In this document: piece by piece, positions 23,338 through 63,770 of the stretch
How positions within the stretch are numbered: the first letter of the stretch is position 1
Layout of the letters: each line of letters opens with the position of its first letter
DNA from: a virus
IMG/VR virus record: IMGVR_UViG_3300044633_000899
Coordinates: 23,306-87,305 of that record
Strand: one strand, 5' to 3'
Length of the DNA stretch: 64,000 bases
The notes under the pieces: generated by a model
The model's input: the letters and a program-made list of their open reading frames with translations, nothing else
Told to the model about the DNA's origin: nothing
The model's database searches: none
Program-made: the position numbers and the translations under genes

Positions 23338-23341
23338 TACT

Positions 23342-24557: not shown

Positions 24558-24561
24558 CTAT

Positions 24562-29598: not shown

Positions 29599-29606
29599 TA
29601 TATTTG
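29599..29606 (+). promoter_or_regulatory. -7 promoter element TAtaTTTG
   Basis: tatatttg 35 nt upstream of ATG 29641. Confidence 0.35.
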
Positions 29607-29640
29607 TCAATATAAATTAAAACTATTAAATAACTTTAAA

Positions 29641-30216
29641 ATGTTACATATAATAACACCTTTATATCGTCCTACTAATTTACCAAAAGTTTACGCATCA
29701 ATATTTAAAAATGATGATATTATTTGGCATATTTCTAAATCATCTAAAGTTCCTGATCCAGAATATGATTTTCTAAAAAACGACAAACAAATCAAATTAT
29801 ATAATGTTGATTGTGAAGATTCGGATACAACCTCAAAAAGAAATTTTGTATTAGAAAAAATTAAAACTGGGTATTTTTGTTTTTTAGATGATGATACCAT
29901 CTTACACGAAAATATATATATAAAATATCTTGAGTGTAAAGAATATAATTTTATAGGGATGTTAGTTGGAGAACAAATAGATAATAATGGTAAATTACGA
30001 TTAATCGCTAGTAAACCAGTTTTTGGTAGAATTGATACTGGTAATGTAATTGCACATCATAAATGTTTAGAAGTGTGTAAATGGCCAACTCACAACCAAC
30101 CAGGTGTTAATCAAAAAGATTTTCTTTTTTGGGAGTCTGTTTATAATTACTATGGTAATAAATGTGGGATATGGAATCAAACTATAAGTTATTACAATAA
30201 AATAAAAGTTAATTAA
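29641..30216 (+). CDS. hypothetical protein (possible DxD-type glycosyltransferase-like)
   Basis: CFLDDDTI motif; weak. Confidence 0.3.
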   Translation: MLHIITPLYRPTNLPKVYASIFKNDDIIWHISKSSKVPDPEYDFLKNDKQIKLYNVDCEDSDTTSKRNFVLEKIKTGYFCFLDDDTILHENIYIKYLECKEYNFIGMLVGEQIDNNGKLRLIASKPVFGRIDTGNVIAHHKCLEVCKWPTHNQPGVNQKDFLFWESVYNYYGNKCGIWNQTISYYNKIKVN

Positions 30217-40262: not shown

Positions 40263-41339
40263 ATGAACAACAATTTAGATAAACAATACACAGATTTATT
40301 ACAGGATATTTTAGAGAATGGTACAAAAAAAGAAACTAGAAATGGTGGAACACTTTCAGTATTCGGAAGACAAATACGTCACAATATGAAAGATGGGTTT
40401 CCAGCCATTACTACCAAAAAAATGGTATTTAAGACAATGGTAACCGAATTGTTATGGTTCTTACGTGGTAGTTCAGATATTAGGTTTTTATGGGAAAACA
40501 ATTGTAAAATCTGGGATGGTGATTGGGAAAAAAATTACAAAACTACTTGTTCAGAACCATATACAATAGAAGAAGTTAAACAAAAAGTAAAAGATGGTAA
40601 CCACCATTTTAACGATTCAATGTTTGATATGGGATTAATTTACGGTAAGCAGTGGAGAAGTTGGAGAGGAAAAAATGGTATGATTGGCGAGAAAGATGAA
40701 GATGGGGTAAGAGTAATTAATTGGGAGAAAATAGATCAAATTGCAAACCTAATCAACGACCTTAAAACAAACCCAGATTCACGTAGGTTACTTGTGTCAG
40801 CGTGGAATCCCGCAGATTTACCACATCAAGTCCTTCCACCTTGTCATTATGGATTTCAAGTTTATACAAGAGAGTTGAGTGAGAAAGAAAGGTATAATCT
40901 TTTAAAAAATTACAAAGGGTTATTATGTTATGATGGTATAGGAAATGTTATGGAATATTATGATTCTATTAATATTCCTAAACGAGCAATCTCATTAATG
41001 TATAATTGCAGAAGCCAGGACGTACCATTAGGAACCCCATTTAATTTAGCATCTTACGGATTGTTATTAGAAATCATTGCAAAAACCGTTAATATGGTTC
41101 CTGACGAATTGATTACAAATATGGGTGATTGTCATATCTATCTAAATCAAATTGATGGTGTTAAAGAACAATTAACAAGAGAACCTTATCCACTACCAAC
41201 CCTAAAACATATGAAAACTGATGAGTTTTATAAATCATTAGGTGAGGATTTATCATTGTTATCACATTTAACAGTTGATGATTTTGTTTTGGAAAACTAT
41301 AAGTCACACCCAAAAATTTATTTTCCGCTTTCAAATTAA
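40263..41339 (+). CDS. thyA: thymidylate synthase (ThyA family, dUMP-type active site; long form with insertions)
   Basis: LLVSAWNPADL, PPCHYGFQVY (catalytic Cys), CRSQDVPLGTPFNLASYGLL (Asn of the dUMP-specific D..N pair), GDCHIYLNQ. Confidence 0.85.
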   Translation: MNNNLDKQYTDLLQDILENGTKKETRNGGTLSVFGRQIRHNMKDGFPAITTKKMVFKTMVTELLWFLRGSSDIRFLWENNCKIWDGDWEKNYKTTCSEPYTIEEVKQKVKDGNHHFNDSMFDMGLIYGKQWRSWRGKNGMIGEKDEDGVRVINWEKIDQIANLINDLKTNPDSRRLLVSAWNPADLPHQVLPPCHYGFQVYTRELSEKERYNLLKNYKGLLCYDGIGNVMEYYDSINIPKRAISLMYNCRSQDVPLGTPFNLASYGLLLEIIAKTVNMVPDELITNMGDCHIYLNQIDGVKEQLTREPYPLPTLKHMKTDEFYKSLGEDLSLLSHLTVDDFVLENYKSHPKIYFPLSN

Positions 41340-42634: not shown

Positions 42635-43435
42635 ATGATTGAAACCCCCTTTAATTACACAGGATCCAAGTATAAATTACTGGATCAGATATTACCCCAC
42701 TTTAATTATAATAAATCAAATTTTGTTGATGTGTTTTGTGGTGGTGGATCCGTATATACCAATGTTTTGGGCAAATACGAGAAAATTATAATCAACGATA
42801 TTATTTCCGACTTGATTGGAATTCATTGTGGTTTAATGGTTGACGATAATATTATTGAGTTAACAAAGGGATTATGTCCAGGTAAAGAAAACCCAGAAGG
42901 TTATTCAATTTTAAGGACTGATTATAATGAAATGCCGACACCAGAAAAACTATGGGCATTAATGTTGAGTTGTACTAATAATATGATGAGGTTTAATCAA
43001 AAATTTAAGTTTAATCAGACGTACGGGAATAGAGGTTGGAATCAAAATACAGATAAAAAAGTTAATAATTTCATTAACCACATTAGGGAATATAAGAACA
43101 AGATTGAATATTCATCAACACATTTTGAAAATTTGAACTTTAATGAAAATCATATGTTATATGTTGATCCACCATATTCAAATACGGAAGCAGGATATAA
43201 CGCTTTTTGGAAAAAAGATGATGATCTTAAACTGTATGACTGGTTAGTTGATAATGATAAAAATGGCTTATCATTTGTTGTGTCAGGAACATTAATCCAC
43301 GATGGTAAATCTTGTGTGTTACTTGACAAGTTAATTTCAGATGGTTATAATTTGGTTGAGTTAGATTTTGATTACAATAAAGTTTCAAGAAAGGGTGACA
43401 AAATAACAAAAGAAATATTAATTAAAAATTATTGA
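42635..43435 (+). CDS. Dam-like DNA N6-adenine methyltransferase
   Basis: NYTGSKYKLLDQILP (KxxLL), FVDVFCGGGSV (AdoMet binding), DPPY catalytic motif. Confidence 0.8.
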   Translation: MIETPFNYTGSKYKLLDQILPHFNYNKSNFVDVFCGGGSVYTNVLGKYEKIIINDIISDLIGIHCGLMVDDNIIELTKGLCPGKENPEGYSILRTDYNEMPTPEKLWALMLSCTNNMMRFNQKFKFNQTYGNRGWNQNTDKKVNNFINHIREYKNKIEYSSTHFENLNFNENHMLYVDPPYSNTEAGYNAFWKKDDDLKLYDWLVDNDKNGLSFVVSGTLIHDGKSCVLLDKLISDGYNLVELDFDYNKVSRKGDKITKEILIKNY

Positions 43436-44827: not shown

Positions 44828-45562
44828 ATGAATTACGGAAAAGAATTTAAAAGTTTTGCAAAGAGCGAAGGAATTTCATCATTAACGATGGATTATTATC
44901 AAAAACATATTGAGAACTCATTGACACCATACATTTTGGAAGAACGTGAATTACGAGCAACACAGATGGATATTTTCTCAAGATTAATCTTGGATAGGAT
45001 TGTTTGGGCATCAGGTACCGTTGATTCAAAAATGGGAGACATTATACAAGCACAATTAATATTTTTGGACACAACAGATAAAAAGGACATTAATTTATAT
45101 CTTAACACTGGTGGTGGATCCGTTATGGTTGGATTGGGAATTCGTGATGTAATGAATTATATTAATTCGGATGTTGCAACGACAAACCTCGGAATGTGTG
45201 CGTCAATGGGATCAATATTATTATCATCTGGGACAAAGGGAAAACGAAGTTCGTTATTATCATCCAAAGTTATGACACACTTTGTTAGTCACGGAACAAG
45301 TGGTAACATACAAGATACAAGAATTAATCAATTAGAGGCCGAAAAATACAATTATATGTTATTTAAAATTTTGGCCGAAAACTCTGGAAAAACTTTTGAT
45401 GAAATATATGAATTGTCTAGACGAGACTGTTGGTTTAACTCAGATGAATCAAAAGAGATTGGTTTAATTGACAATATTATTGGTCTTGAAAAAGATAAGT
45501 CAATAACCAATTATTTGGAAGGATTTGAAGAATATTACGCTAAAGAAGTTTTTAAATCTTAA
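44828..45562 (+). CDS. ClpP-family (S14) serine peptidase, possibly a prohead maturation protease
   Basis: NTGGGSVMVGLGIRDVMNYI and GMCASMGSILLSSG (catalytic Ser context), His in MTHFVSHG. Confidence 0.55.
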   Translation: MNYGKEFKSFAKSEGISSLTMDYYQKHIENSLTPYILEERELRATQMDIFSRLILDRIVWASGTVDSKMGDIIQAQLIFLDTTDKKDINLYLNTGGGSVMVGLGIRDVMNYINSDVATTNLGMCASMGSILLSSGTKGKRSSLLSSKVMTHFVSHGTSGNIQDTRINQLEAEKYNYMLFKILAENSGKTFDEIYELSRRDCWFNSDESKEIGLIDNIIGLEKDKSITNYLEGFEEYYAKEVFKS

Positions 45563-47444: not shown

Positions 47445-47452
47445 TACATTTG
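47445..47452 (+). promoter_or_regulatory. -7 promoter element TAcaTTTG
   Basis: tacatttg 4 nt before ATG 47457. Confidence 0.4.
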
Positions 47453-47456
47453 TGGT

Positions 47457-48155
47457 ATGAAAAAAAGATTGACATTTATTTCGGATACACACACCAAACA
47501 CGACAAACTAAATGGTTTCTTACCTAGTGGTGATATTTTATTGTGTGCCGGAGACATATCTAGTCGTGGATCTATAACTGAACTTGAAAATTTTTTCAAG
47601 TGGTTTGATGGTATTGACAATTATGATACCAAAGTATTTATTGCGGGTAATCACGACTTTGGTTTTCAAGATGAGAACGAAAAAATAAAAGGATTACTTA
47701 CTGGATATAAAACCATAGAATATCTTCAAGACGAAAGGTTGGATCTTTTTGATGAAGAAGATCAACAATTAGTAATTTATGGTTCGCCTTGGCAACCAGA
47801 ATTTAATAATTGGGCATTTAATTTACCTCGTGGTGAAAAGATAAAAGAAAAGTGGGATTTAATCCCAAATGATGTTGATATCTTAATAACGCATGGTCCA
47901 CCATTTAGTAAATTGGATTATGTACCGTACAATAATATCAATGTTGGTTGTGAAGAATTATTATTAAAAGTTCAGGGAATTAAACCTAAAATTCACCTCT
48001 TTGGCCATATTCACGAGGGTTCTGGATATGTTTTTGATGGAAATACCCACTATATCAATGCTGCCGTTTTAAATGGTCGTTACGAATTTAGAAACAAACC
48101 AATAACTGTTGATTTTGATTTTGAAACCAATGAGATTGATTTCATTGATATTTAA
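47457..48155 (+). CDS. calcineurin-like metallophosphoesterase
   Basis: ISDTHTKH, AGDISSRGS, AGNHD, ITHGPP, GHIHEG. Confidence 0.8.
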   Translation: MKKRLTFISDTHTKHDKLNGFLPSGDILLCAGDISSRGSITELENFFKWFDGIDNYDTKVFIAGNHDFGFQDENEKIKGLLTGYKTIEYLQDERLDLFDEEDQQLVIYGSPWQPEFNNWAFNLPRGEKIKEKWDLIPNDVDILITHGPPFSKLDYVPYNNINVGCEELLLKVQGIKPKIHLFGHIHEGSGYVFDGNTHYINAAVLNGRYEFRNKPITVDFDFETNEIDFIDI

Positions 48156-53257: not shown

Positions 53258-53760
53258 AAATAATTATAACCGAAAGCCAATATAAATTCTTAACTGAAAA
53301 TTTTGATTCTGTTTTGGATATATACTCAAAGAAAAATAAAGGTGAAACATTAAAACCTTCCGAATTGGATGTGTTAAAAGTTTTTAATGATTATGTAAAA
53401 AAAGGTGGCACACCAGAAGAATTTGTTTTTAATCAAGACGATGTTTATGGATTTGATGAGAGAGAAGGTATGTTATTTAATTATAATCTAAAAGGTCGGC
53501 CATTACAATTTGAGTTCACTGAAGAAACTGAAACCGAAAATGATATTGACTATTTTGGTGAAATAACATTTGATGGTGATGAATACCTCGGCGTTATTGT
53601 AACGGATAAAAATGGTTATTTAATTGATTATGATTTTTACTCAACGTTAACAAAAGGTGATGTTAGATTACAGGAATTATTAATTGTTGATAATAGTGAT
53701 GCAGAATTTAGAAATTTTTTACAAGAAATGGTTATTAACGTTTTAATAAATGAAAAATAA
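53254..53760 (+). CDS. leader-peptide family protein (MKIIITESQYKFL)
   Basis: N-terminal motif shared with 27074 and 55672. Confidence 0.5.
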   Translation: MKIIITESQYKFLTENFDSVLDIYSKKNKGETLKPSELDVLKVFNDYVKKGGTPEEFVFNQDDVYGFDEREGMLFNYNLKGRPLQFEFTEETETENDIDYFGEITFDGDEYLGVIVTDKNGYLIDYDFYSTLTKGDVRLQELLIVDNSDAEFRNFLQEMVINVLINEK

Positions 53761-54148
53761 TTTAAAAGAAAAATTAAAGGACTTAATCAAAAAGGTTGGT
53801 TTTGAATCAACGATAAGAGTTGTCGGATCCTTGGATAAAACTTTTGAAATTTTTGACATTAAAAAGCCAATGGATTTCTTAAATTTATTTAATGACCTAG
53901 AATCAGTTCAGAGTGAAGAACGTCAAGAGTGGACATTGTATAGATATAAAAAGGGACATAATTTAATGGTTTACAATAGAGAAAATGATTATGTTTATAT
54001 CAATTATGATGAAATTTGGTCAGTTTTGGGAGATAAATTCGGTCTTAACTACTCTGAAATACAGGATCTTACAAAGAGATGGTTGGATGAGGTCTACAAT
54101 TTAAGGGGAGTCACACCTAACGAAGTATACTATTACGTTTGGTGCTAG
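53750..54148 (+). CDS. repeat-associated family protein C
   Basis: MKNNLKEKLKDLIKKVGFESTIRVVGSLDKTFEIFD...WLDEVYNLRGVTP then spacer-encoded NEVYYYVWC stop. Confidence 0.7.
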   Translation: MKNNLKEKLKDLIKKVGFESTIRVVGSLDKTFEIFDIKKPMDFLNLFNDLESVQSEERQEWTLYRYKKGHNLMVYNRENDYVYINYDEIWSVLGDKFGLNYSEIQDLTKRWLDEVYNLRGVTPNEVYYYVWC

Positions 54149-54231: not shown

Positions 54232-55668
54232 GTGAAAATTTTATTAAACGAGAAACAATTCAAAAATATTGTAGTTCTATTATCTGAAGATGACGATAAA
54301 AAAATAAACGTAATGTTTGTTGGTGACAGCCATAGTGATGGCCAAGGGTACACCTGGAATTATGATTTAGAGAAACAACATCCAGAATGGAATGTAACAC
54401 ATATTGTAAAAGGTGGTAAAACAACAGAGTGGATGTTAGAAAATATGTTACCAGAATTATCAAAAAAACATTATGATTTAGTTTTCATATTAGGTGGTAC
54501 AAATGATGTTATGTCACCATTACCAATAGAGACACCAATCAACAATATTCAAAAAATGGTTAATGCAGTCAACACCCAAGGTGGAAAAGCAATTGTTGTT
54601 ATCGGATTTGATAGTGAATCTATTATGGATGTAAATAAATTACGAACAACGAAATATTGTGACAAAGAATGTTTAAAAAAGTTTAAACCAAAAAGAGTTG
54701 AATTCCAACGTAAATTAGAAAGTTCAATCCAAAACGCAACAATAGTACCACCACTTGTTGGTGATTACACTTGGGCAAATGATGGTATACACGTCGGCGG
54801 ATCAAAACACAAACTATTATCAAGTACCGTTGAAAATTATATAACAAAAGGTGAGGTTAAAAACCAAAAAAAATCACTAATTAATCAACTATTAGACAAG
54901 TATACAGAAGTAATCCAAAACAAAAGTACAATTGACGCAATAAGTCCAAGAAAAGAGATTAAATTATTACAAATACTTTTTTCAATTGCTGAAGGTCAAA
55001 AGAACAGAAATTTTTCTGGTACATTAGATTCTGACACCATTACTAGACTTAAAAAATATCAAACAACTAATAATTTACCGAATACAGGTATTTTTGATTA
55101 TCAAACAATTTATAGTATAAACAACAAGATAAGCCCAAAATTAAATAAAGTTTTAAAACCAGAAATGGCAAAAGAAACAATATCAGATCCTGGATCCTCA
55201 ATTGTTAGTACGAGTAAATTAGTTAATGATTTAAAATCATTTGGTTTAACTGAAAATGCTGCAAAAGGTTTGACAGCAAACGCATATGGTGAAAGTGGTT
55301 TAAATTATAAAGCGAAAGGTGATTCGGGTTCCTATGCGAAGAACACTACAAAATCAATTGATATTGGTGGTAAAAAATATTGTTCATTTGGTTTATGGCA
55401 ATTTAATGTGTGTGGTGGGTTAGGTATTGAGTTTTTAAAAAAATACAATACACTTAACAGTGGTAATACGGATAAAATAGAAACTCTGTTTGATTATAAT
55501 AAACAATTAGAGATTATGGGTTCTAAGATAATGAAAGAACAATCTAAAGGTGATAAGAGTGTTAAAACTTGGATTGACTGGATTGTTGATAATGTTGAAC
55601 GACCTGCTGACAAATCTGGTGCAAAACAAAAACGACAAAATTTTGCTAAACAACAAGGTTGGATATAA
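54232..55668 (+). CDS. three-domain cell-wall hydrolase: SGNH/GDSL esterase + PG-binding domain + phage tail-lysozyme-like domain
   Basis: VMFVGDSHSDG and ILGGTNDV (SGNH blocks I and III); LDSDTITRLKKYQTTNNLPNTGIFDYQT (PG_binding_1-like); C-terminal GLWQFN-containing domain. Confidence 0.55.
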   Translation: MKILLNEKQFKNIVVLLSEDDDKKINVMFVGDSHSDGQGYTWNYDLEKQHPEWNVTHIVKGGKTTEWMLENMLPELSKKHYDLVFILGGTNDVMSPLPIETPINNIQKMVNAVNTQGGKAIVVIGFDSESIMDVNKLRTTKYCDKECLKKFKPKRVEFQRKLESSIQNATIVPPLVGDYTWANDGIHVGGSKHKLLSSTVENYITKGEVKNQKKSLINQLLDKYTEVIQNKSTIDAISPRKEIKLLQILFSIAEGQKNRNFSGTLDSDTITRLKKYQTTNNLPNTGIFDYQTIYSINNKISPKLNKVLKPEMAKETISDPGSSIVSTSKLVNDLKSFGLTENAAKGLTANAYGESGLNYKAKGDSGSYAKNTTKSIDIGGKKYCSFGLWQFNVCGGLGIEFLKKYNTLNSGNTDKIETLFDYNKQLEIMGSKIMKEQSKGDKSVKTWIDWIVDNVERPADKSGAKQKRQNFAKQQGWI

Positions 55669-55671
55669 GTG

Positions 55672-56121
55672 ATGAAAATAATAATAACTGAAAATCAATA
55701 TAAATTGATTAAAGAAAATATTTCTTTAAAAGAAAAATTATTGGGTTTAATCAAAAAAGTTGGATTTAAATCTGTTGTAAAAATTGTCGGATCTTTGGAT
55801 AAAACATTTGAAATTTTTGATATCAAAAAACCAATGGATTTCTTAAACTTGTATAATGATTTGGAATCAGTTCAGAGTGAGGAACAACCTGATTGGACTT
55901 TATTTCGTTATGAAAAACACAAAAATTTAATGATTTACCATAGAAAAAATGACTACGTTTACATCAATTATGATGAAATTTGGTCAGTTTTGGAAGATAA
56001 ATTTGGTCTTAACTACTCTGAAATACAAAAACTTACAGAGAGGTGGTTGGATGAGGTATACAATTTAAGGGGAGTCACACCAACGGAAGGAAATTGGAAC
56101 CAAAAAGATTGGGTTGGATGA
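55672..56121 (+). CDS. repeat-associated family protein D with leader MKIIITENQYKLIKENISLKEKL
   Basis: Module about 75% identical to A-C; stop codon lies inside the second repeat copy. Confidence 0.7.
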   Translation: MKIIITENQYKLIKENISLKEKLLGLIKKVGFKSVVKIVGSLDKTFEIFDIKKPMDFLNLYNDLESVQSEEQPDWTLFRYEKHKNLMIYHRKNDYVYINYDEIWSVLEDKFGLNYSEIQKLTERWLDEVYNLRGVTPTEGNWNQKDWVG

Positions 56122-56213: not shown

Positions 56214-56600
56214 ATGAATGAAAATAATAAATTATATTGTACTGACTGTAAAAAAATAACAAACCACATACCAAAATTATCAGCACTTATGGATGGTTGT
56301 ATGGTCTGTGATAATTGTTCAAAGATGAATGGTTTTTGTTCTTTAATTAAAGTCGGTGACGATAATTTTCAAAAACATTCTAAAGAAGTACGTTGGGTTG
56401 AATTTAATGAAGAGGGTAAAGGTAAAGAACTACGTGATAAAGTCGTAGTCGGTTCTAGTTTAATTATGAGTCCATTTAATGAATCTTTCACCTGGATGAC
56501 AACAATAGTTACTGAGATCGTAGAAGAACGTGATAATTACGTACATTTCAAAACAGAAAATACTGAATACAAACTATACTATAACATACAAAATGTTTAG
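56214..56600 (+). CDS. zinc-ribbon protein
   Basis: CTDCKK...CMVCDNC. Confidence 0.45.
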   Translation: MNENNKLYCTDCKKITNHIPKLSALMDGCMVCDNCSKMNGFCSLIKVGDDNFQKHSKEVRWVEFNEEGKGKELRDKVVVGSSLIMSPFNESFTWMTTIVTEIVEERDNYVHFKTENTEYKLYYNIQNV

Positions 56601-56669
56601 ATTTTCTTGGTTTGATATAAAATAATTAATTTTTTTTTTAAAAATGTTTTGTGGTTTGAAAAAAATGAT

Positions 56670-56677
56670 TACATTTG
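56670..56677 (+). promoter_or_regulatory. -7 promoter element TAcaTTTG
   Basis: tacatttg; the track ORF start at 56675 lies inside it, so the start was moved to 56702. Confidence 0.4.
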
Positions 56678-56701
56678 TACTGTAATCTTAAATTAATTAT
56701 T

Positions 56702-57073
56702 ATGTCAAGAACAAAAACATTAGGTCTTCACGAGTGGTCAAAGGAAGACACAATCATTACTTTGTATTTCGCAAAGTTCGGTACTTTTGGGTTATATTTA
56801 AAAACCGAAAAAGCGCTTGCCGATTTTATTGGTACGTCAGTTTCATCGTTTAAGATGCAAGTGGCAAACGTTAGGACGTTGTTGGGTAAACACGAAGCAA
56901 CATTATCCGATTATTCAAAACTACAAGAAGATGTTTTTTCTGAATTTAATCGTGTGTCACAACTTTCTTTGATGAATAAAGTACGATCCATTATTAATCA
57001 CGATGAAAATGAGTTAAGAGAAATTTTCAGTAAGATGGGTAAGGACTTTAGTAAGATGAGGAAAATCTCGTGA
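56702..57073 (+). CDS. hypothetical protein (MSRTKTLG...)
   Basis: ORF downstream of the promoter motif. Confidence 0.5.
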   Translation: MSRTKTLGLHEWSKEDTIITLYFAKFGTFGLYLKTEKALADFIGTSVSSFKMQVANVRTLLGKHEATLSDYSKLQEDVFSEFNRVSQLSLMNKVRSIINHDENELREIFSKMGKDFSKMRKIS

Positions 57074-57333
57074 TGACTATCAGAAACTGGTGTATTATGA
57101 ATATGACTGATTTTAGAGAGTCCGAAAAGTTTTTATTATCCTTGAACGTTGGTGAGGGTTATAATGATATTATTGTAACCAAAAAAACAAAAAAAAGGAT
57201 CCATTTATCAAACGGAAAAATTGTTACAATTAAAAATGGTGGTAATTTTTTATATTTGGACTCTGCTAAAAACGGTATCAATCAAATCCTAAGAGATATT
57301 CAAGGGTTTTTAATTTATAAAATTCATTGCTAA
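57070..57333 (+). CDS. hypothetical protein (87 aa)
   Basis: ORF. Confidence 0.4.
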   Translation: MMTIRNWCIMNMTDFRESEKFLLSLNVGEGYNDIIVTKKTKKRIHLSNGKIVTIKNGGNFLYLDSAKNGINQILRDIQGFLIYKIHC

Positions 57334-57528
57334 ATGAAAAAACCTTGTAAAGAATGTCCCCACTTTAATAGAAATCGTCATAACGATATGATTGTTGGTT
57401 TTGCTGAGAGAATTGGTAAGAAACACAATTGTCATATGACTGAAGGAAAAAAAGATTTGTGGAATGTTACAGATAATAAAATAGAGTGTTATGGATCAAG
57501 AAAAAATAAATTGGATTATATTATCTGA
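57334..57528 (+). CDS. Cys/His-rich small protein
   Basis: CKECPHF...HNCH...ECYG. Confidence 0.4.
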   Translation: MKKPCKECPHFNRNRHNDMIVGFAERIGKKHNCHMTEGKKDLWNVTDNKIECYGSRKNKLDYII

Positions 57529-58336
57529 CCCTTTAAACACACCACCTCATCACGGGGGACCACTGATATTACACTATATATCAAAAAAACTTTTAGAGTT
57601 TGGTGATAGAGTATGTATGAATCATCCGTTTTATGAGGGGTGTGAAAAAATAACTAAAGATTTTTTAAAAACTTTAAATACTAAAGAGTGGGTGCTTATA
57701 ACAACAGAAAACGATTTTAGGTTGGAAGATTTTAAATTTAAAACAGTTAGACTCATATTATTTACAGGAAAAAATATGGAAAAATACGGGAGTGATGAAT
57801 TAATATTTCAGTATGGTAAATCGTTTACTGTTGGAACTAAATATGAAAACGCTTTATCTATAAGACCGATTGTAACAAATATAAGTTTTTGGAAAGATTT
57901 AGAATGTCAGAGATCTGAAACACCACTAATACTACTTAAAAAGGGTGTTATATCTAAAGACGATAAAATTATTGAAGGTCGGTTAATTGATGAAGTAATT
58001 AATATGAATGACACAAGGGAAGTCATTGATTTTGAATTACTAAAACTTTTTAATACACATAAGACTTTTATTACATATGATAACAATACATTCCATTCAA
58101 CACAGGCAGCATTATGTGGTGCAATATCTATTGTTATCCCCGATGGTAAATTAAATGAAAAAGAGTGGAGAAGGTCTACAAAAAGAGAATATGGTATAGC
58201 ATACGGGAATAATAAAGAACAAATTGATTTTGCTTTAAATACTATTGATAATTTAAAAGAATTAATTAAATCTGAATTAAATAGAAGTCACGAAGAAATT
58301 TCTTTTCTTAGAGAAAAAGTTTTATTAAGTTTTTAA
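57491..58336 (+). CDS. possible glycosyltransferase (GT-B C-terminal-like)
   Basis: TYDNNTFHSTQAALCGAISIVIPDG resembles the GT1 E..G.PVI block; weak. Confidence 0.3.
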   Translation: MDQEKINWIILSDPLNTPPHHGGPLILHYISKKLLEFGDRVCMNHPFYEGCEKITKDFLKTLNTKEWVLITTENDFRLEDFKFKTVRLILFTGKNMEKYGSDELIFQYGKSFTVGTKYENALSIRPIVTNISFWKDLECQRSETPLILLKKGVISKDDKIIEGRLIDEVINMNDTREVIDFELLKLFNTHKTFITYDNNTFHSTQAALCGAISIVIPDGKLNEKEWRRSTKREYGIAYGNNKEQIDFALNTIDNLKELIKSELNRSHEEISFLREKVLLSF

Positions 58337-58350
58337 TACTTATATTATAT

Positions 58351-59175
58351 ATGAAGAAGATAATTAATTTTACCCCCACTGGTACTCAAACTACCAGAGA
58401 AAACTCATACGCACCACTTGAACCTAATGAGATTGTTGATTCGGTAATTGAAGCCAATGAATTAGGTATAACATTAGTTCATTTACATGCACGTGACGAA
58501 AATCTTAAAAACACTTATGAAGTTAAACATTTTTCAAAAATTGTGGATGGTATTAGGAAGTATTGTCCAGAACTTGTCATATGTGTTTCAATGTCGGGTA
58601 GGAATTTCCCCGAAGTTGAAAAAAGAACGGAAGTTCTCCAACTTATGCCAGATATGGCTTCACTCACACTATCTTCACTTAATTTCCAAACAGGGGCTTC
58701 TATAAATGAACCTGATGTTATTATACAATTAATTAAAGAGATGGATAAGTGGGGGGTCATCCCTGAATTAGAATGTTTTGATACAGGTATGATAAATATG
58801 ACAAATAATTTAATTTCAAAAAACATTTTAAAACCACCATTTTATTTTAATGTTATTTTAGGTAATCTATATAATAGTCAATCAGATATTCTTTCTGTTG
58901 CCAATATGAAACACCAAATACCAAAAAACGCTATAACAACAATTGGTGGTATTGCGAGTCAACAATTAAAGAGTAATATTTACGGACTTATTGATTTTGA
59001 TGGGATCAGGATTGGTTTAGAAGATAATTTGATGTTTAGAAAAGGTGAGAAGGCAACAAATTCTGAATTAATAAAAAGAATACACCGAATTATGACAGAA
59101 CTAGATTTAGGTGTTATGAGTTCAAACGAATTTAGAAAATTAGGATATGAAAACAGAAACATTAATAATAGGTAA
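58351..59175 (+). CDS. beta-keto acid cleavage enzyme family protein (BKACE/DUF849, 3-keto-5-aminohexanoate cleavage enzyme-like)
   Basis: NFTPTGT, LVHLHARDE, PELECFDTGM, GIRIGLEDNL, ATNSELI blocks co-linear with Kce-family enzymes. Confidence 0.7.
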   Translation: MKKIINFTPTGTQTTRENSYAPLEPNEIVDSVIEANELGITLVHLHARDENLKNTYEVKHFSKIVDGIRKYCPELVICVSMSGRNFPEVEKRTEVLQLMPDMASLTLSSLNFQTGASINEPDVIIQLIKEMDKWGVIPELECFDTGMINMTNNLISKNILKPPFYFNVILGNLYNSQSDILSVANMKHQIPKNAITTIGGIASQQLKSNIYGLIDFDGIRIGLEDNLMFRKGEKATNSELIKRIHRIMTELDLGVMSSNEFRKLGYENRNINNR

Positions 59176-59779
59176 AGGTGATGATATCATAACAATGATA
59201 TTAGATAACCTAAGTTCTGAAAATGAGACAGGTAAAATTACAATCTATAATAATTTAGATTTACCAATCAATAGTGATTTTTCTCATTCCGAATTTGAAA
59301 TTAATCTGTTAAATGAATTAGAACTTTCTGATTATAACAAATGGGTTTTGGGGATTTACAAACCAAGTTTAAAAAAGAAAATTATTGATGGTTTAGAGAT
59401 ATATGGTCATATCAATTTTATTAATTGTATACATAAAGGTCTTGACATATCTAAAACCACAAAAGTCGGTGTAGGTTGTTTAATAAATTCTAAAGTTTCA
59501 ATTGCTGCTCACACAATTATAAAAAACTATGTTTCCATTAATAGACATACGTCAATTGGTCACCACACAATTATTGAAGATTATGCCTCAATAAATCCAG
59601 GATGTAATATTGCGGGTCATTGTCATATTGGGGAAGGGACAACAATCGGTATAGGATCTCAAATATTAGATGGTATAACAATTGGGAAAAACACAATTAT
59701 TGGTGCCGGTTCGGTTGTTACGAGAGATATACCAGATGGTGTTGTTGCCTGGGGGAGTCCTTGTAAAATTAAAAACTAA
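59147..59779 (+). CDS. hexapeptide-repeat acetyltransferase (NeuD/PglD-like)
   Basis: N-terminal Rossmann-like IGKGDDII segment + left-handed beta-helix repeats (IGEGTTIGIGSQI, IGKNTIIGAGSVV) + VAWGSPCKI tail. Confidence 0.7.
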   Translation: MKTETLIIGKGDDIITMILDNLSSENETGKITIYNNLDLPINSDFSHSEFEINLLNELELSDYNKWVLGIYKPSLKKKIIDGLEIYGHINFINCIHKGLDISKTTKVGVGCLINSKVSIAAHTIIKNYVSINRHTSIGHHTIIEDYASINPGCNIAGHCHIGEGTTIGIGSQILDGITIGKNTIIGAGSVVTRDIPDGVVAWGSPCKIKN

Positions 59780-59781
59780 TT

Positions 59782-60429
59782 ATGGCTGAAGGTGTTCACA
59801 AAATAACTCAATCATTTGAGGAAGAAATTTCTAAATATACGGGCGCTAAATATACCGTTGCTTTAGACAATATGAGTAACGCGTTATTTTTGGCTCTCTA
59901 TTATGAAAATAAAATCAAAAATAACACATCTGAAACAATAAGTATTCCTTGTAGAACCTACCCTTCTGTTCCGTGTGAAATTATACATGCCGGTTTAAAA
60001 GTTAATTTTTATGAAGTTAATGGTGATACAATCAAAGGGGCTTATCAACTGATAGGAAGTAAGGTATGGGATTCCGCTTTGAGGTTTACAAATGATATGT
60101 ATTTACCAAATACACATATGTGTTTATCGTTTACTGGGCCATATAAACAACTTAAATTAAGTAAAGGTGGTGCAATTTTAACCGACGACTATGACGCTTA
60201 TAAATGGTTTAAAAAGGCAAGATTTAGTGGTAGAGATGAATGTTCTTACCATATTGATAATTTTGACTTAAATCCTATTATTGGTTGGAATTTTTATATG
60301 ATGCCTGAAATATCCGCTAGAGGTTTATTACTTATGAGTCAATTTTATAATATGGATGGAAGTAAAAAACAAAATGAAGATTTGGAATTATCTTATCCAG
60401 ATTTATCCAAGTTTGAAATTTGGAGGTAA
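59782..60429 (+). CDS. DegT/DnrJ/EryC1-like protein (short form, 215 aa)
   Basis: FEEEISKYTGAKYTVALDN, ISIPCRTYPSVPCEI, LSFTGPYKQL...GGAILTDD resemble aminotransferase blocks, but the protein is about 60% of normal length and lacks SGT. Confidence 0.4.
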   Translation: MAEGVHKITQSFEEEISKYTGAKYTVALDNMSNALFLALYYENKIKNNTSETISIPCRTYPSVPCEIIHAGLKVNFYEVNGDTIKGAYQLIGSKVWDSALRFTNDMYLPNTHMCLSFTGPYKQLKLSKGGAILTDDYDAYKWFKKARFSGRDECSYHIDNFDLNPIIGWNFYMMPEISARGLLLMSQFYNMDGSKKQNEDLELSYPDLSKFEIWR

Positions 60430-60531: not shown

Positions 60532-60539
60532 TATCTTTG
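60532..60539 (+). promoter_or_regulatory. -7 promoter element TAtcTTTG
   Basis: tatctttg 4 nt before ATG 60544. Confidence 0.4.
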
Positions 60540-60543
60540 CAAT

Positions 60544-61155
60544 ATGAAAACTGAATTGACATACGAAGAAAGAATCGCATGGTTTGTTGAAAACTATTAT
60601 GAGAGTGGTATGGAATACCAAAGTCTTTTAGTTACAATGAAGGAGGAGGATTTAGATAATTTTAAATGGTACGATGATTTCATATCAATACCAAAACACA
60701 AAGTAGAATCAAAATTTGGAACATATATGGAAACAGAAAGTACAACAAAATTAACCAGTGATAAGATCACAAGGTTTGTTGAAAGGTTGAAAAAAATTGG
60801 AATTGATGTGAAACTAATAGGAAACTTTCCTTGGGTTTATATTGATGAGATCTGTGGGATCAGAGTTACTGAAAGTTTTGCTGCGAACCACGGATTTACT
60901 TTGATATTCCTTCCTGGTAGAAACGATAGTCCTGTGTCTGAATTTACAGACATTGAAGAGATTTTCAAACTTATACGAAAGTACGTTAAAGAAGCAAAAT
61001 TTAGACAAATTGAAAAGTTAAAGGCTCAGATTGAAGTATTAGAAAGTATTTGTGATAATACTATGGAACAAGACGATGCAACTAAATACTTTGTGTTGTG
61101 TAAGTTATCTGATTTAAAAATAAAACTAAAAGAAATAAAAAATGAAAATCAATAA
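60544..61155 (+). CDS. hypothetical protein (203 aa)
   Basis: ORF. Confidence 0.5.
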   Translation: MKTELTYEERIAWFVENYYESGMEYQSLLVTMKEEDLDNFKWYDDFISIPKHKVESKFGTYMETESTTKLTSDKITRFVERLKKIGIDVKLIGNFPWVYIDEICGIRVTESFAANHGFTLIFLPGRNDSPVSEFTDIEEIFKLIRKYVKEAKFRQIEKLKAQIEVLESICDNTMEQDDATKYFVLCKLSDLKIKLKEIKNENQ

Positions 61156-61555
61156 ATTATTTTTAGATGACGTAAGAATCCCAAAAGATGCGATAGGATT
61201 AATTCCGGATAAACATAATCAGTTTTACTTCTCTAACGATTGGGAGATAGTAACAAACTATGATGATTTCGTTCAACACATTGAACTTAACGGAGTTCCT
61301 AACTTTGTATCATTTGATCACGACCTGGGTGATACCGCAATGGATGAGTATTTTAGAAATGTTGCAACCAATGGAACTTTGGATTATGAAAACATAGAAG
61401 AAAAAACTGGTCTTGACTGTGCAAAATTTCTTGTGGAATATTGTGTAGATAAAAACCAACCATTACCAGAGTATTTGGTTCATAGTGCAAACCCAGTTGG
61501 AAAAAGAAATATTGAAGGATTTTTAGAAAACGCAAAAAAACATTTAAGTATATAA
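61142..61555 (+). CDS. hypothetical protein (137 aa)
   Basis: ORF. Confidence 0.5.
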   Translation: MKINKLFLDDVRIPKDAIGLIPDKHNQFYFSNDWEIVTNYDDFVQHIELNGVPNFVSFDHDLGDTAMDEYFRNVATNGTLDYENIEEKTGLDCAKFLVEYCVDKNQPLPEYLVHSANPVGKRNIEGFLENAKKHLSI

Positions 61556-62392: not shown

Positions 62393-62400
62393 TATATTTG
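62393..62400 (+). promoter_or_regulatory. -7 promoter element TAtaTTTG
   Basis: tatatttg 4 nt before ATG 62405. Confidence 0.4.
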
Positions 62401-62404
62401 CATT

Positions 62405-62653
62405 ATGGAAAATCAAACATTAGGTCAAATATTGGGTGCTAAGTCTAGTGGAATATTCATTAATGATAAACACGAGTATTGTTCGGTATATTCGTATTAC
62501 ATCAGTAATAAACGGAAATTCCAGATAATCTTTTCAAAAGGGCTTACAAGTATTGCAACAAGACCAGCAATAAACTCAACATCAGAAAAAAAAATATTAA
62601 AGTTTTTGAGTTCTGAAAATTTTGTAATAGTAAAAACTGAAAATAATATATAA
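62405..62653 (+). CDS. hypothetical protein (82 aa)
   Basis: ORF. Confidence 0.45.
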   Translation: MENQTLGQILGAKSSGIFINDKHEYCSVYSYYISNKRKFQIIFSKGLTSIATRPAINSTSEKKILKFLSSENFVIVKTENNI

Positions 62654-62654
62654 T

Positions 62655-63770
62655 ATGGAAAATCAAAATAGCGTAGCATACGTAGGAAAAATAGGTTCAG
62701 TATCTGAAATACCAGGCGCTGACAACATAGAATTAGTAACGATTGGTGGTTGGACTGCAATAACCAAAAAAGGTGAATATCGTATAGGATCTTTAGTAGT
62801 TGTTGCTACAACGGATGCTATAATACCACAGAAACTTTCTGATGGAATAGGTGTCACTAATTATTTAAGAAAGGGTCAAAGAGTAAGAACAGTTAAGTTA
62901 CGTGGGGTTTATTCAGAATGTTTAATTATTCCAATATCAAATGTTCCCGATTCATATCGTTATGATGGATGTGACTGTATGGAATTGTTAGGTATAAACA
63001 AGTATGAACCACCAGTTAAAACAATCACCTTATCATCTGGTGGTCGTAAGTTTAAATACCACCAAAACCCAAATTTCCACATTTACCATAAGTTTCCAAA
63101 CCAAAAGAACGTACCAGATATGTTCAATGAGGACGATGCGGTTGTAATAACTCGTAAGTTACACGGAACTAATGCCAGATTCGGAATAATCAGAAAGAAT
63201 AAACTTTCTTTATGGGATCGTGTTAAAATGTTCTTTGGTGATAAATGGGCCGGATTTGAATACGTCGCGGGCAGTCACAACGTAGAGAAAGGATCCGACT
63301 CGCAAGGTTTTTATGATACAAATGTTTGGTTTGAAATCGCTGATAAATACAATATCAAATCAAAACTCTTGGAACACGTAAAAGACACATATGAATATCT
63401 TGAAAGTGGTTTTATTGTGTATGGTGAAATATATGGCGCTGGAATACAAAAAAACTATGACTATGGTTTAACTGAAATAAAGTTTGCTGGATTTGATGTT
63501 GAGGTTGATGGAAAATACGAACCATATATGAGAGAAAAGGTACACTTTGAAGTAATGGATCTACCACAGGTTGAGGTATTATATAGTGGTAACTGGAATA
63601 AAGAAATGCAAGATAGTTTTGTGTTTGATAATTTCATAGAAGGAACAAAAGTTCCACACGAGGGTGTTGTTGTGAAAACTGTAACTGGTGTTCGTAGTAA
63701 AGTTTCAAAATGTATAAATCCTATGTATTTAATCTACGGAGAAAAACATAACGTTGGTGATTCACATTAA
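62655..63770 (+). CDS. Rnl2-family RNA ligase (nucleotidyltransferase) with N-terminal OB-like extension
   Basis: Motif I KLHGTN (lysine-adenylate site), YGEIYGAGIQKNYDY resembling Rnl2 motif IV (FGEFAGPGIQKNVDY in T4 Rnl2). Confidence 0.6.
   Translation: MENQNSVAYVGKIGSVSEIPGADNIELVTIGGWTAITKKGEYRIGSLVVVATTDAIIPQKLSDGIGVTNYLRKGQRVRTVKLRGVYSECLIIPISNVPDSYRYDGCDCMELLGINKYEPPVKTITLSSGGRKFKYHQNPNFHIYHKFPNQKNVPDMFNEDDAVVITRKLHGTNARFGIIRKNKLSLWDRVKMFFGDKWAGFEYVAGSHNVEKGSDSQGFYDTNVWFEIADKYNIKSKLLEHVKDTYEYLESGFIVYGEIYGAGIQKNYDYGLTEIKFAGFDVEVDGKYEPYMREKVHFEVMDLPQVEVLYSGNWNKEMQDSFVFDNFIEGTKVPHEGVVVKTVTGVRSKVSKCINPMYLIYGEKHNVGDSH

What the first reader, a model, noticed from the sequence alone, without database searches (positions are those of the whole stretch)
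57491..60429. Modification cluster containing a BKACE (DUF849) enzyme, a NeuD/PglD-like acetyltransferase, a short DegT-like protein and a GT-like protein
A beta-keto-acid cleavage enzyme homolog (58351-59175) is unusual in a phage; the family catalyses acetyl-CoA-dependent beta-keto acid cleavage or condensation. It is translationally coupled to a hexapeptide acetyltransferase and followed by a truncated DegT-like protein. A possible glycosyltransferase precedes it. Such a set could build an amino-sugar or acyl moiety for DNA hypermodification, virion glycosylation or host surface alteration. A dUMP-type ThyA homolog (40263-41339) that could alternatively be a hydroxymethylase lies elsewhere in the window.
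Basis: partly seen in the sequence, partly recalled or inferred. Interest (0 to 1): 0.65.

Follow-up and report, generated by a model that had tools for sequence, protein, structure and literature searches.

The report
Phage sugar-acylation cassette with BKACE enzyme
A large phage of a probable Bacteroidota host carries a conserved gene set that most likely builds and attaches an unusually acylated amino sugar, using a beta-keto-acid cleavage enzyme so far known only from catabolism, apparently to supply the acyl group.

Summary
The four ORFs exist exactly as described. The family calls hold. 58351-59175 is a full-length BKACE with its catalytic residues intact. 59147-59779 is a PerB/PglD-type hexapeptide N-acyltransferase that overlaps it by 29 nt. 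59782-60429 is a 215-aa DegT-like protein. 57491-58336 models as a GT-B-like transferase.

New findings:
- BKACE plus acyltransferase is a fixed gene pair. It occurs in 34 of 36 related viral contigs and in bacterial chromosomes of Bacteroidota and Verrucomicrobiota. It is absent next to more distant BKACEs.
- The "truncated" DegT belongs to a large conserved short family that keeps the PLP lysine and aspartate.
- A fifth member, a GT-A-like gene with a DxD motif, lies at 29641-30216.
- In bacteria the set sits beside DegT aminotransferases and Amj- or Wzx-type flippases. In phage relatives it sits among several glycosyltransferases, sugar methyltransferases and WbqC.

Best reading: BKACE makes a non-acetyl acyl-CoA, which the coupled transferase puts on a 4-amino sugar nucleotide. 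Transferases then attach that sugar to an acceptor still unknown. DNA hypermodification is disfavoured, because ThyA scores as a normal thymidylate synthase, the window encodes three Dcm-type and one Dam-type methylase, and the context is glycan-type. No literature on this pairing was found. I rate it a new variant of a known kind.

The parts
57491..58336 (+). 281-aa GT-B-like transferase of an undescribed family, probably the glycosyl or group transferase of the cassette
58351..59175 (+). BKACE (beta-keto acid cleavage enzyme, DUF849) of an uncharacterised subfamily, the proposed supplier of a non-acetyl acyl-CoA
   Evidence: PF05853, E=8e-61, full length. The alignment to Kce 2y7d keeps H44/H46, E141, R220 and E224-D225, and these are invariant in the clade. 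It is below every NCBIfam equivalog cutoff: Kce 187 vs 382, 3-oxoadipate 156 vs 350, dioxohexanoate 109 vs 430. Kce Glu14, the amine binder (PMC10470551), is Gln13 here.
59147..59779 (+). PerB/PglD/NeuD-type left-handed beta-helix sugar N-acyltransferase, translationally coupled to BKACE
   Evidence: Hexapep E=7e-17. TIGR03570 E=2e-40. Best solved relatives are perosamine N-acetyltransferase PerB 4ea7 (5e-20), the pilin glycosylation acetyltransferase 4m98, VioB and PglD. H139 aligns with the catalytic His mutated in PerB entries 4eaa and 4eab. It lies immediately downstream of BKACE in 34 of 36 viral loci and in 12 of 14 well-flanked bacterial loci.
59147..59175 (+). 29-nt overlap of the BKACE 3' end with the acyltransferase 5' end (translational coupling)
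   Evidence: The same overlap occurs in 32 of 36 related viral loci.
59782..60429 (+). 215-aa minimal DegT-like PLP-fold protein, the proposed 4-aminotransferase for the sugar nucleotide
   Evidence: PF01041, E=4e-12, but only over profile positions 26-103. The 120 best homologue clusters are almost all 208-226 aa. D97-S98-A99, S116-F117, K122 and K128-G129-G130 are invariant. K122 aligns with ColD position 188, the PLP-lysine position. The AF2 model (pLDDT 83, pTM 0.82) best matches nucleotide-sugar aminotransferases and dehydratases such as 7b0d, 8e75, perosamine synthase 3bn1 and ColD. It is 71% identical to the 214-aa gene of Flavobacterium phage immuto that sits next to a PglD-like gene.
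29641..30216 (+). 191-aa GT-A-like glycosyltransferase (N-terminal 'HIITPLYR' strand, 'FLDDDT' DxD motif), a fifth member of the cassette encoded 28 kb away
   Evidence: It is 71% identical to the gene directly after BKACE-acyltransferase in L030, and it is homologous to that gene in 10 viral loci. It is 42-44% identical to the bacterial gene that follows BKACE-acyltransferase(-short DegT) and that precedes an Amj-like flippase in three of those four loci (L044, L046, L066; not L042). Direct family evidence is weak: Pfam GT2 E=0.058, and the TagF GT2-like region E=0.03.
60532..60539 (+). TAnnTTTG promoter-like box 5 nt before the ATG of the next gene, marking the likely 3' boundary of the transcription unit
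   Evidence: There is a 114-nt AT-rich gap after 60429. No such box precedes 56214-59782.

Best explanation
The locus is a phage-borne cassette for tailoring and transferring a nucleotide-sugar. Its core is an obligate BKACE plus LbH-acyltransferase pair.

Proposed mechanism:
1. The host supplies an NDP-4-keto-6-deoxyhexose. No dehydratase is present in the cassette. (Inferred.)
2. The 215-aa minimal DegT-like protein, which keeps the PLP lysine and aspartate, aminates it to an NDP-4-amino sugar. (Inferred from fold and conserved residues.)
3. BKACE carries out the family reaction: beta-keto acid + acetyl-CoA gives acetoacetate + acyl-CoA. This produces a CoA thioester other than acetyl-CoA. 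The chemistry is established for the family, but the substrate here is unknown. Gln replaces the amine-binding Glu14 of Kce, which argues against 3-keto-5-aminohexanoate and fits a neutral polar substrate such as a hydroxy- or oxo-beta-keto acid.
4. The translationally coupled PerB/PglD-type transferase uses that acyl-CoA to N-acylate the amino sugar. (Inferred from the invariant pairing and the conserved catalytic His.)
5. The GT-A-like protein (29641-30216) and the GT-B-like protein (57491-58336) transfer the finished sugar to an acceptor.

In bacteria the homologous set is followed by Amj- or Wzx-type flippases, which points to an envelope glycan. The phage versions lack the flippase and lack the C-terminal hydrophobic tail of the GT-A. 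All the window proteins are predicted soluble. The phage acceptor is therefore most likely cytoplasmic, such as a virion protein or other phage product. Feeding of the host's envelope pathway is not excluded.
For: Gene identities.

Pairing:
- BKACE and the acyltransferase are adjacent in 34 of 36 IMG/VR loci, and they overlap in 32.
- Among bacterial genomes, 17 of 23 BKACEs with at least 43% identity have an adjacent NeuD-like acyltransferase, and 12 of 14 do when both flanks are present. None of 28 with lower identity do.

Sugar context:
- The short DegT is in 29 of 36 viral loci.
- Full-length DegT lies next to the pair in L049 and L055, and a DegT plus Wzx-like Polysacc_synt in L053.
- An Amj-like flippase follows in L044, L046 and L066.
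- Viral relatives carry GT2 (several), GT1, WbqC, TylF-like and other methyltransferases and GNATs around the module.
- The Flavobacterium phage immuto cluster has the short DegT plus a PglD-like gene among five glycosyltransferases, an epimerase and a full-length WecE.

BKACE chemistry and breadth of substrates come from PMC11961710. The Glu14 determinant comes from PMC10470551.

BKACE fails all isofunctional equivalog cutoffs. No transmembrane-like segment is found in any of the window proteins.
Against: - No step has biochemical support here.
- The short DegT lacks about 40 internal residues and the whole C-terminal domain of active aminotransferases. It may be inactive or do something else. 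It is missing within 8 kb in 7 of 36 viral loci and in a near-identical relative, L039.
- The acyltransferase is below the TIGR03570 cutoff, and nothing shows that it prefers a non-acetyl donor.
- A source of free beta-keto acid in the infected cell is not identified.
- The GT-B-like assignment rests on a medium-confidence model, and that fold class also includes non-glycosyl transferases, for example pyruvyl transferases.
- The acceptor is unknown.
Confidence: 0.5

Rival explanations
1. Host-surface remodelling. The phage makes the modified nucleotide sugar (or a lipid-linked sugar), which enters the host's own O-antigen, capsule or glycoprotein pathway. This changes the cell surface during infection, for example for superinfection exclusion or to prevent progeny from re-adsorbing.
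For: The bacterial homologues of the whole set lie in chromosomal loci with Amj- and Wzx-type flippases. The phage lacks the upstream dehydratase, so it must tap host sugar-nucleotide pools (no such gene was found among the ORFs scanned).
Against: No flippase, GT-C or polyprenyl-phosphate transferase was found in the window or in 36 viral loci. The phage GT-A lacks the C-terminal tail of the bacterial versions. Viral relatives carry many soluble glycosyltransferases, which suggests that a complete glycan is assembled in the cytoplasm.
Confidence: 0.22
2. DNA hypermodification. The sugar or acyl moiety is attached to a hydroxymethylated base in the phage DNA. The ThyA homologue would act as the hydroxymethylase and the GT-B-like protein as a DNA glycosyltransferase.
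Against: ThyA passes the thymidylate-synthase equivalog model at 269 bits against a cutoff of 108. Three Dcm-type and one Dam-type methylase argue that C and A are ordinary methylation substrates. The same module in bacteria is linked to flippases. Relatives have 4-6 glycosyltransferase domains, sugar methyltransferases and WbqC, which is typical of glycans and not of base modification. T4 AGT is not the best structural match. No hypermodification marker such as a DNA kinase or an aGPT-Pplase was seen among the ORFs scanned.
Confidence: 0.06
3. BKACE is a stand-alone auxiliary metabolic gene that redirects host keto-acid, lysine or ketone-body catabolism (for example to harvest acetoacetate or acyl-CoA for energy). 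It merely neighbours unrelated sugar genes.
For: All characterised BKACEs are catabolic. The best NCBIfam hit is the lysine-fermentation Kce.
Against: It overlaps the acyltransferase ORF by 29 nt, and this pairing is conserved across phages and three bacterial phyla. It scores far below all equivalog cutoffs. The Kce amine-binding Glu14 is replaced by Gln. No other lysine-fermentation, carnitine or aromatic-degradation genes were seen nearby.
Confidence: 0.07
4. The BKACE-acyltransferase pair acts on a non-sugar amine or on a sugar-borne beta-keto acid (for example a 4-keto-uronate), and the short DegT is a non-catalytic scaffold. In that case the chemistry would be new for both families.
For: The short DegT is dispensable in some loci and is heavily reduced. 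The specificity of this BKACE subfamily is unknown.
Against: The PLP lysine and aspartate are invariant across the short family. Full-length DegT replaces it in some bacterial loci. The acyltransferase's closest solved relatives all N-acetylate NDP-4-amino sugars.
Confidence: 0.1

Closest known systems
Anthrose operon AntABCD of Bacillus anthracis (from my own knowledge, not tested here)
   Same: The logic is the same. It combines an enzyme that prepares an unusual acyl-CoA (AntA), a glycosyltransferase (AntB), a DegT-type aminotransferase (AntC) and an LbH N-acyltransferase (AntD) that puts the non-acetyl group on an NDP-4-amino-4,6-dideoxyhexose.
   Different: Here the acyl-CoA supplier is a Zn-dependent BKACE TIM-barrel, not an enoyl-CoA hydratase. 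The aminotransferase is a 215-aa minimal form. The carrier is a phage. No homology to the Ant proteins was tested.
PerA/PerB (GDP-perosamine synthase and N-acetyltransferase) and PglE/PglD (bacillosamine pathway)
   Same: The acyltransferase's best solved relatives are PerB, PglB-acetyltransferase, VioB and PglD, with the catalytic His conserved. The DegT-like model best matches perosamine synthase, PseC, WbpE and ColD.
   Different: Those enzymes use acetyl-CoA and have no BKACE partner. The aminotransferases are 360-390 aa two-domain proteins. The window acyltransferase is below the TIGR03570 cutoff.
Kce and other characterised BKACEs (lysine fermentation, carnitine, 3-oxoadipate, triacetate lyase)
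   Same: Full-length PF05853, conserved HxH/E metal site, catalytic Glu and Arg. The expected reaction is beta-keto acid + acetyl-CoA giving acetoacetate + acyl-CoA.
   Different: All characterised members are catabolic and none is linked to sugar genes. This one fails every equivalog cutoff, has Gln at the Kce Glu14 position, and is fixed next to a sugar N-acyltransferase.
Virus-encoded glycan machinery: Megavirinae fibril sugars (PMC10117803) and mycobacteriophage virion glycosylation (Freeman et al. 2023, cited in PMC12801897)
   Same: These viruses carry their own aminotransferase, N-acetyltransferase and glycosyltransferase genes to decorate virion proteins with bacterial-type amino sugars.
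   Different: No BKACE or other acyl-CoA-generating enzyme is reported in those systems. Virion glycosylation has not been shown for this phage.
Arn and Gtr-type lipid-linked sugar modification systems (comparison for the bacterial homologues; from my own knowledge)
   Same: In Aquirufa, Arcicella and Cytophagaceae the order is sugar-tailoring enzymes, then a GT-A with a C-terminal tail, then a small flippase. This parallels ArnB/ArnA, then ArnC, then ArnEF.
   Different: No homology to ArnC or GtrB was demonstrated (Pfam GT2 only E=0.058). The flippase is Amj-like. The phage lacks the flippase and the tail.

Membership tests
BKACE (PF05853, DUF849) | Full-length match above the Pfam gathering score | tested here: met
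   206 bits against a cutoff of 24.8, covering profile positions 2-271 of 274.
BKACE (PF05853, DUF849) | Zn site (HxH plus Glu) and catalytic Glu and Arg of Kce and BKACE15 | tested here: met
   H44/H46, E141, R220 and E224-D225 align with Kce His46/His48, Glu143, Arg226 and Glu230-Asp231. They are invariant in 20 clade members. The role of the Glu is taken from PMC11961710. The identity of the Zn ligands is from my own knowledge of the Kce structure.
[quoted passage not shown] | NCBIfam equivalog cutoff and the amine-binding Glu14 | tested here: not met
   187 bits against a cutoff of 382. Glu14 is Gln13 here.
BKACE (PF05853, DUF849) | Acetyl-CoA-dependent cleavage of a beta-keto acid | not testable with these tools
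   This needs an enzyme assay.
NeuD/PglD/PerB/VioB LbH sugar N-acyltransferases (TIGR03570) | Score above the curated subfamily cutoff | tested here: not met
   138.3 bits against a cutoff of 160.8, with E=2e-40. The Pfam Hexapep match is above its cutoff (60.8 vs 27).
NeuD/PglD/PerB/VioB LbH sugar N-acyltransferases (TIGR03570) | Catalytic histidine in the LbH domain and an N-terminal nucleotide-binding domain | tested here: met
   H139 aligns with the His that is replaced in PerB mutant entries 4eaa and 4eab. The N-terminal 'LIIGKG' motif is seen directly in the sequence. A PglD_N hit is recorded for the acyltransferase in the P0288 locus.
DegT/DnrJ/EryC1/StrS sugar aminotransferases (PF01041) | Pfam gathering score | tested here: met
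   46.6 bits against a cutoff of 19.8, but only profile positions 26-103 of 360 are matched.
DegT/DnrJ/EryC1/StrS sugar aminotransferases (PF01041) | Two-domain architecture of about 360-400 aa | tested here: not met
   The protein is 215 aa. The whole short family is 208-226 aa. The model shows the large-domain sheet only.
DegT/DnrJ/EryC1/StrS sugar aminotransferases (PF01041) | PLP Schiff-base lysine and ring-N aspartate | tested here: met
   K122 aligns with ColD position 188. K122 and D97-S98-A99 are invariant. This rests on alignment only, and PLP binding was not shown.
DegT/DnrJ/EryC1/StrS sugar aminotransferases (PF01041) | Fold of the PLP-binding domain | tested here: met
   The Foldseek top 50 are all nucleotide-sugar aminotransferases or dehydratases, E about 5e-6, TM(query) 0.5-0.57.
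GT-B glycosyltransferases (for 57491-58336) | Sequence membership in a known GT family | tested here: not met
   No Pfam, PHROG or NCBIfam hit.
GT-B glycosyltransferases (for 57491-58336) | Twin-Rossmann GT-B fold | tested here: inconclusive
GT-A / GT2 glycosyltransferases (for 29641-30216) | Pfam GT2 gathering score and the DxD motif | tested here: inconclusive
   PF00535 gives 13.8 bits against a cutoff of 23.3 (E=0.058). The DxD motif 'FLDDDT' and the N-terminal beta-strand motif are invariant in the family.
Phage DNA hypermodification systems (hydroxymethyl-pyrimidine based) | A dUMP or dCMP hydroxymethylase distinct from thymidylate synthase, plus DNA-level transferases | tested here: inconclusive
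   The ThyA homologue passes the thymidylate-synthase equivalog model, which does not strictly exclude a hydroxymethylase. No other marker was found among about 60 ORFs scanned. Several window ORFs were not scanned.

The most novel reading that the evidence does not exclude
A BKACE subfamily has been recruited from catabolism into biosynthesis. It makes a non-standard acyl-CoA (for example a hydroxy- or oxo-acyl-CoA) on demand for a dedicated LbH transferase. The product would be a previously unassigned N-acyl amino sugar. Bacteroidota and Verrucomicrobiota would place it on their envelope, and jumbo phages would place it, through soluble transferases and a minimal 215-aa PLP aminotransferase, on their own virions or another cytoplasmic target.
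Probability: 0.35. Interest if true: 0.72.

Novelty: new variant of a known kind. Interest (0 to 1): 0.58.

Why it matters
If correct, this would give the BKACE family its first biosynthetic role. It would also explain how some bacteria and phages obtain unusual N-acyl groups for amino sugars, which shape serotype, phage receptors and immune recognition.

It would define a minimal PLP sugar aminotransferase about 60% of the normal size. It would also add two undescribed transferase families (281 aa GT-B-like and 191 aa GT-A-like) to glycan biology.

For phage biology, it points to large uncultured phages of Bacteroidota that invest in elaborate glycan synthesis. That could affect virion stability, host range or evasion of host defences.

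The module is compact, with four or five soluble proteins, so it can be tested directly in vitro.

Tried and rejected
- Near-identity DNA search of window 1-25000 against deposited phages found no match, so no named relative is available.
- tblastn of the BKACE, the 281-aa ORF and the GT-A-like ORF against 50,697 phage records found no match.
- I tested whether the alternative conserved neighbour family 'c3' (about 320 aa, in 25 viral loci) is a divergent homologue of the window's 281-aa ORF. It is not: the HMM search was not significant and hhalign gave 1.8% probability.
- The C-terminal extensions of the fused relatives of the 281-aa family had no match to any module protein.
- Literature searches for BKACE or DUF849 with phage, virus, O-antigen, capsule, glycosylation or polysaccharide found nothing relevant. 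NetSyn's synteny analysis of BKACE mentions no acetyltransferase or aminotransferase context.
- The Bastard 2014 and Bellinzoni 2011 papers are not held, so a full active-site classification into ASMC groups could not be done.
- The sigma-70 promoter and terminator scans were uninformative: 37 promoter-like hits against 34.7 expected, and 0 terminators.
- No tRNAs are in the window.
- The afdb50 fold library was unavailable. The BFVD search gave only weak matches.
- I rejected the idea that the short DegT is an assembly or frameshift artefact, because its best 120 homologue clusters are nearly all the same length.


Full report
**Observation.** The ORF list shows four consecutive + strand genes at exactly the reported coordinates:
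- 57491-58336 (281 aa)
- 58351-59175 (274 aa)
- 59147-59779 (210 aa)
- 59782-60429 (215 aa)

The spacing is tight. There is a 14-nt gap, then a 29-nt overlap, then a 2-nt gap. A 114-nt AT-rich spacer follows, ending in a TAnnTTTG box 5 nt before the next ATG.

Pfam, PHROG and NCBIfam scans give these results:
- The second gene is a full-length BKACE (PF05853, E=8e-61).
- The third is a hexapeptide-repeat NeuD/PglB/VioB-type acyltransferase (TIGR03570 E=2e-40, though 138 bits is below the 160.8 cutoff).
- The fourth is DegT-like (PF01041 E=4e-12), but only over profile positions 26-103 of 360.
- The first has no hit in any library.

The window as a whole looks like a large AT-rich phage (about 29% GC). 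It has three Dcm-type and one Dam-type methylase, ThyA, DnaJ, lysozymes, ClpP and an RNA ligase. The identical BKACE protein occurs on a 296-kb contig.

**Each protein in turn.**

*BKACE.* It aligns over its whole length with the solved Kce (2y7d, E=1e-32). The aligned residues are H44/H46, E141, R220 and E224-D225, which match Kce His46/His48, Glu143, Arg226 and Glu230-Asp231. All are invariant in a 20-member alignment of the clade. The equivalent Glu is the catalytic base in BKACE15, and the family reaction is beta-keto acid + acetyl-CoA giving acetoacetate + acyl-CoA, with broad substrate range (PMC11961710).

This protein is not any characterised BKACE. It falls far below all four NCBIfam equivalog cutoffs. 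The Kce residue that binds the substrate's amino group, Glu14, is Trp in the triacetate lyase (PMC10470551). Here it is Gln13, nearly invariant in the clade.

*Acyltransferase.* Its closest solved relatives are perosamine N-acetyltransferase PerB (5e-20), the Neisseria pilin-glycosylation acetyltransferase, VioB and PglD. H139 aligns with the histidine replaced in the PerB mutant structures.

*DegT-like protein.* It is not a broken gene. The 120 best homologue clusters are almost all 208-226 aa. D97-S98-A99, S116-F117, K122 and K128-G129-G130 are invariant. K122 aligns with ColD position 188, the Schiff-base position. An AlphaFold model (pLDDT 83, pTM 0.82) has nucleotide-sugar aminotransferases and dehydratases as all of its top matches. 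It is therefore a minimised DegT large domain that retains the PLP residues. It lacks about 40 internal residues and the C-terminal domain.

**Comparative genomics.** BKACE is absent from 50,697 deposited phage genomes. It is present, at 56-80% identity, on 36 IMG/VR viral contigs of up to 335 kb. In those loci:
- 34 have the acyltransferase immediately downstream, and in 32 the two ORFs overlap.
- 29 have the short DegT within 8 kb.
- 25 have an unrelated 320-aa family ('c3') in the position that the 281-aa gene occupies in the window. The two are not homologous.
- 10 have a 190-210-aa family ('c6') directly after the pair.

The window encodes a 71%-identical c6 homologue 28 kb away, at 29641-30216. 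It has GT-A hallmarks: an N-terminal 'HIITPLYR' strand and an invariant 'FLDDDT' DxD motif. Its Pfam GT2 score is sub-threshold (E=0.058).

A scan of one genome per prokaryotic species shows that the pairing is not phage-specific. Of 23 bacterial BKACEs with at least 43% identity, 17 have an adjacent NeuD-like acyltransferase. These come from Cytophagales such as Pseudarcicella hirudinis, Arcicella and Aquirufa, from Saprospiraceae and Prolixibacteraceae, from Verrucomicrobiota, and from one actinomycete. Where both flanks are available, the count is 12 of 14. None of 28 more distant BKACEs (Chloroflexia, Myxococcota and others) has one.

The bacterial contexts are chromosomal and glycan-like:
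- Aquirufa: BKACE, acyltransferase, short DegT, GT-A homologue, Amj-like flippase.
- Cytophagaceae and Arcicella: the same order without the DegT in between.
- Prolixibacteraceae: a full-length DegT immediately upstream.
- An actinomycete: a full-length DegT nearby.
- Another MAG: a DegT and a Wzx-type Polysacc_synt protein.

The bacterial GT-A homologues carry a C-terminal extension of about 50 aa. It is hydrophobic in two cases and amphipathic in the others, and the phage versions lack it. No Amj-like protein exists in any viral locus or in the window.

Around the module, viral relatives encode a tandem GT2, further GT2s, a GT1, WbqC, TylF-like and other methyltransferases and GNATs. Flavobacterium phage immuto has the short DegT (71% identity) next to a PglD-like gene inside a 12-kb cluster. 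That cluster has five glycosyltransferases, a full-length WecE, a methyltransferase and an epimerase, but no BKACE. A 64%-identical relative of the 281-aa protein sits between a short DegT and a PglD-like acyltransferase in another locus without BKACE.

The broad core is therefore aminotransferase-like + LbH acyltransferase + transferases. BKACE, with its own acyltransferase subfamily, is an add-on that always travels with the acyltransferase.

**Mechanism.** What is shown is the family memberships, the intact catalytic residues, the strict gene pairing and the glycan-type context. What is inferred is the following sequence:
1. A host NDP-4-keto-6-deoxyhexose is aminated by the minimal DegT.
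2. BKACE makes a non-acetyl acyl-CoA from an unidentified beta-keto acid. The Gln-for-Glu14 change argues against the lysine-fermentation substrate and fits a neutral polar one.
3. The coupled PerB/PglD-type enzyme transfers that acyl group to the amino sugar.
4. The GT-A-like and GT-B-like proteins attach the sugar to an acceptor.

The logic parallels the anthrose operon, which has an acyl-CoA-preparing enzyme, a glycosyltransferase, an aminotransferase and an LbH N-acyltransferase. That comparison is from my own knowledge and was not tested here. I give the pathway as a whole a confidence of 0.5.

The acceptor is open. The loss of the flippase and of the GT-A tail in phages, and the absence of hydrophobic segments in all the window proteins, favour a cytoplasmic target such as virion proteins. 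Precedents exist in mycobacteriophages and giant viruses (PMC10117803; Freeman 2023 as cited in PMC12801897). Host-envelope remodelling remains a serious rival at about 0.22.

- ThyA (358 aa, with an insertion) passes the thymidylate-synthase equivalog model at 269 bits against a cutoff of 108.
- Three cytosine-C5 methylases and one adenine-N6 methylase are encoded.
- The homologous bacterial loci are envelope-directed.
- The relatives' loci resemble glycan assembly lines.

It is not excluded for thymine, because a thymidylate-synthase model cannot rule out a hydroxymethylase and not every ORF was scanned.

**Novelty.** I found no paper that links BKACE or DUF849 to phages or to glycan biosynthesis. 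The BKACE synteny study (NetSyn) mentions no acetyltransferase or aminotransferase context. The overall kind of system, an amino-sugar N-acylation and glycosylation cassette, is well known. Three things appear undescribed: the obligate BKACE partner, the 215-aa DegT form, and the two unnamed transferase families. I rate it a new variant of a known kind, with interest 0.58.

**Limits.**
- There is no biochemistry.
- The structure models are of medium to good confidence but come from shallow alignments.
- The GT-A and GT-B assignments are below family thresholds.
- Gene calls in the related loci come from a simple longest-ORF caller.
- The host assignment to Bacteroidota rests on three indirect lines: the taxonomy of the closest bacterial homologues, the Flavobacterium phage relative, and a 2.3-fold enrichment of TAnnTTTG boxes upstream of genes.

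Noticed in passing
window 60532-60544, 62393-62405, 23330-23342, 24550-24562, 47445-47457, 29599-29641 and others: The Bacteroidota-type -7 promoter box TAnnTTTG lies 5-57 nt upstream of 13 + strand start codons. Five of them are only 5 nt before the ATG, which suggests near-leaderless mRNAs. 13 of the 63 motif hits fall in the 9% of the window that is upstream of gene starts. This suggests a Bacteroidota host.
   Followed up: partly
window 1043-3641 and 42635-43435: Three tandem cytosine-C5 DNA methylase genes (299, 265 and 302 aa) and a separate Dam-type N6-adenine methylase. This is an unusually heavy investment in methylation-based anti-restriction.
   Followed up: no
window 40263-41339: The ThyA homologue is 358 aa, about 90 aa longer than typical, because of an internal insertion. 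The Pfam match spans residues 7-356 but only 264 profile positions. It still passes the thymidylate-synthase equivalog model.
   Followed up: partly
window 53750-54148 and 55669-56121: Two paralogous small proteins, 81% identical over 122 aa, flank a 478-aa protein that combines GDSL lipase, peptidoglycan-binding and phage tail lysozyme domains (54232-55668).
   Followed up: partly
window 27551-28105, 61142-61555, 62655-63770: A possible RNA-repair set is scattered in the window: the HAD domain of 'Swiss Army Knife' RNA repair proteins, a cyclic-phosphate-processing receiver domain (cREC_REC) and an RNA ligase with a PHA02142 OB-fold.
   Followed up: no
window 57334-57528: A 64-aa Cys/His-rich ORF (CxxC...H...CH pattern) overlaps the start of the GT-B-like gene by 38 nt. 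It is conserved at the same place in near-identical contigs L038 and L040. It has no family hit. It may be a small zinc-binding partner or regulator of the cassette.
   Followed up: no
L115 1929-5246 and L116 768-4085: A 50%-identical relative of the 281-aa GT-B-like protein follows an acyl-CoA dehydrogenase (393 aa), a 300-aa protein and a 90-aa protein, which could be a carrier protein. This is another hint that the family works with unusual acyl groups. The contigs end right after the gene.
   Followed up: no
L002-L027, for example L004 2352-3311: A conserved 320-aa family ('c3') with invariant His/Glu/Asp motifs (SHSHIP, HHIEYD) is adjacent to the BKACE module in 25 viral loci. It has no Pfam hit and is unrelated to the window's 281-aa protein. 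It may be an alternative transferase.
   Followed up: partly
phage records LR756511 (595 kb), LR756502 (642 kb), PQ898602 (Synechococcus phage S-SCSM2R): Short DegT-like proteins also occur in two metagenomic megaphages (64% and 30% identity) and in a cyanomyovirus (31%). In the cyanomyovirus it is annotated as an AHBA-synthase 'antibiotic synthesis gene' next to a radical SAM maturase.
   Followed up: no
window 12438-13373, 13635-15575, 31535-32482, 44828-45562: The phage encodes a full DnaJ (J domain, zinc-finger and C-terminal domains), a 646-aa leucine-rich-repeat protein, an SPFH/Band-7 protein and a ClpP-type protease.
   Followed up: no
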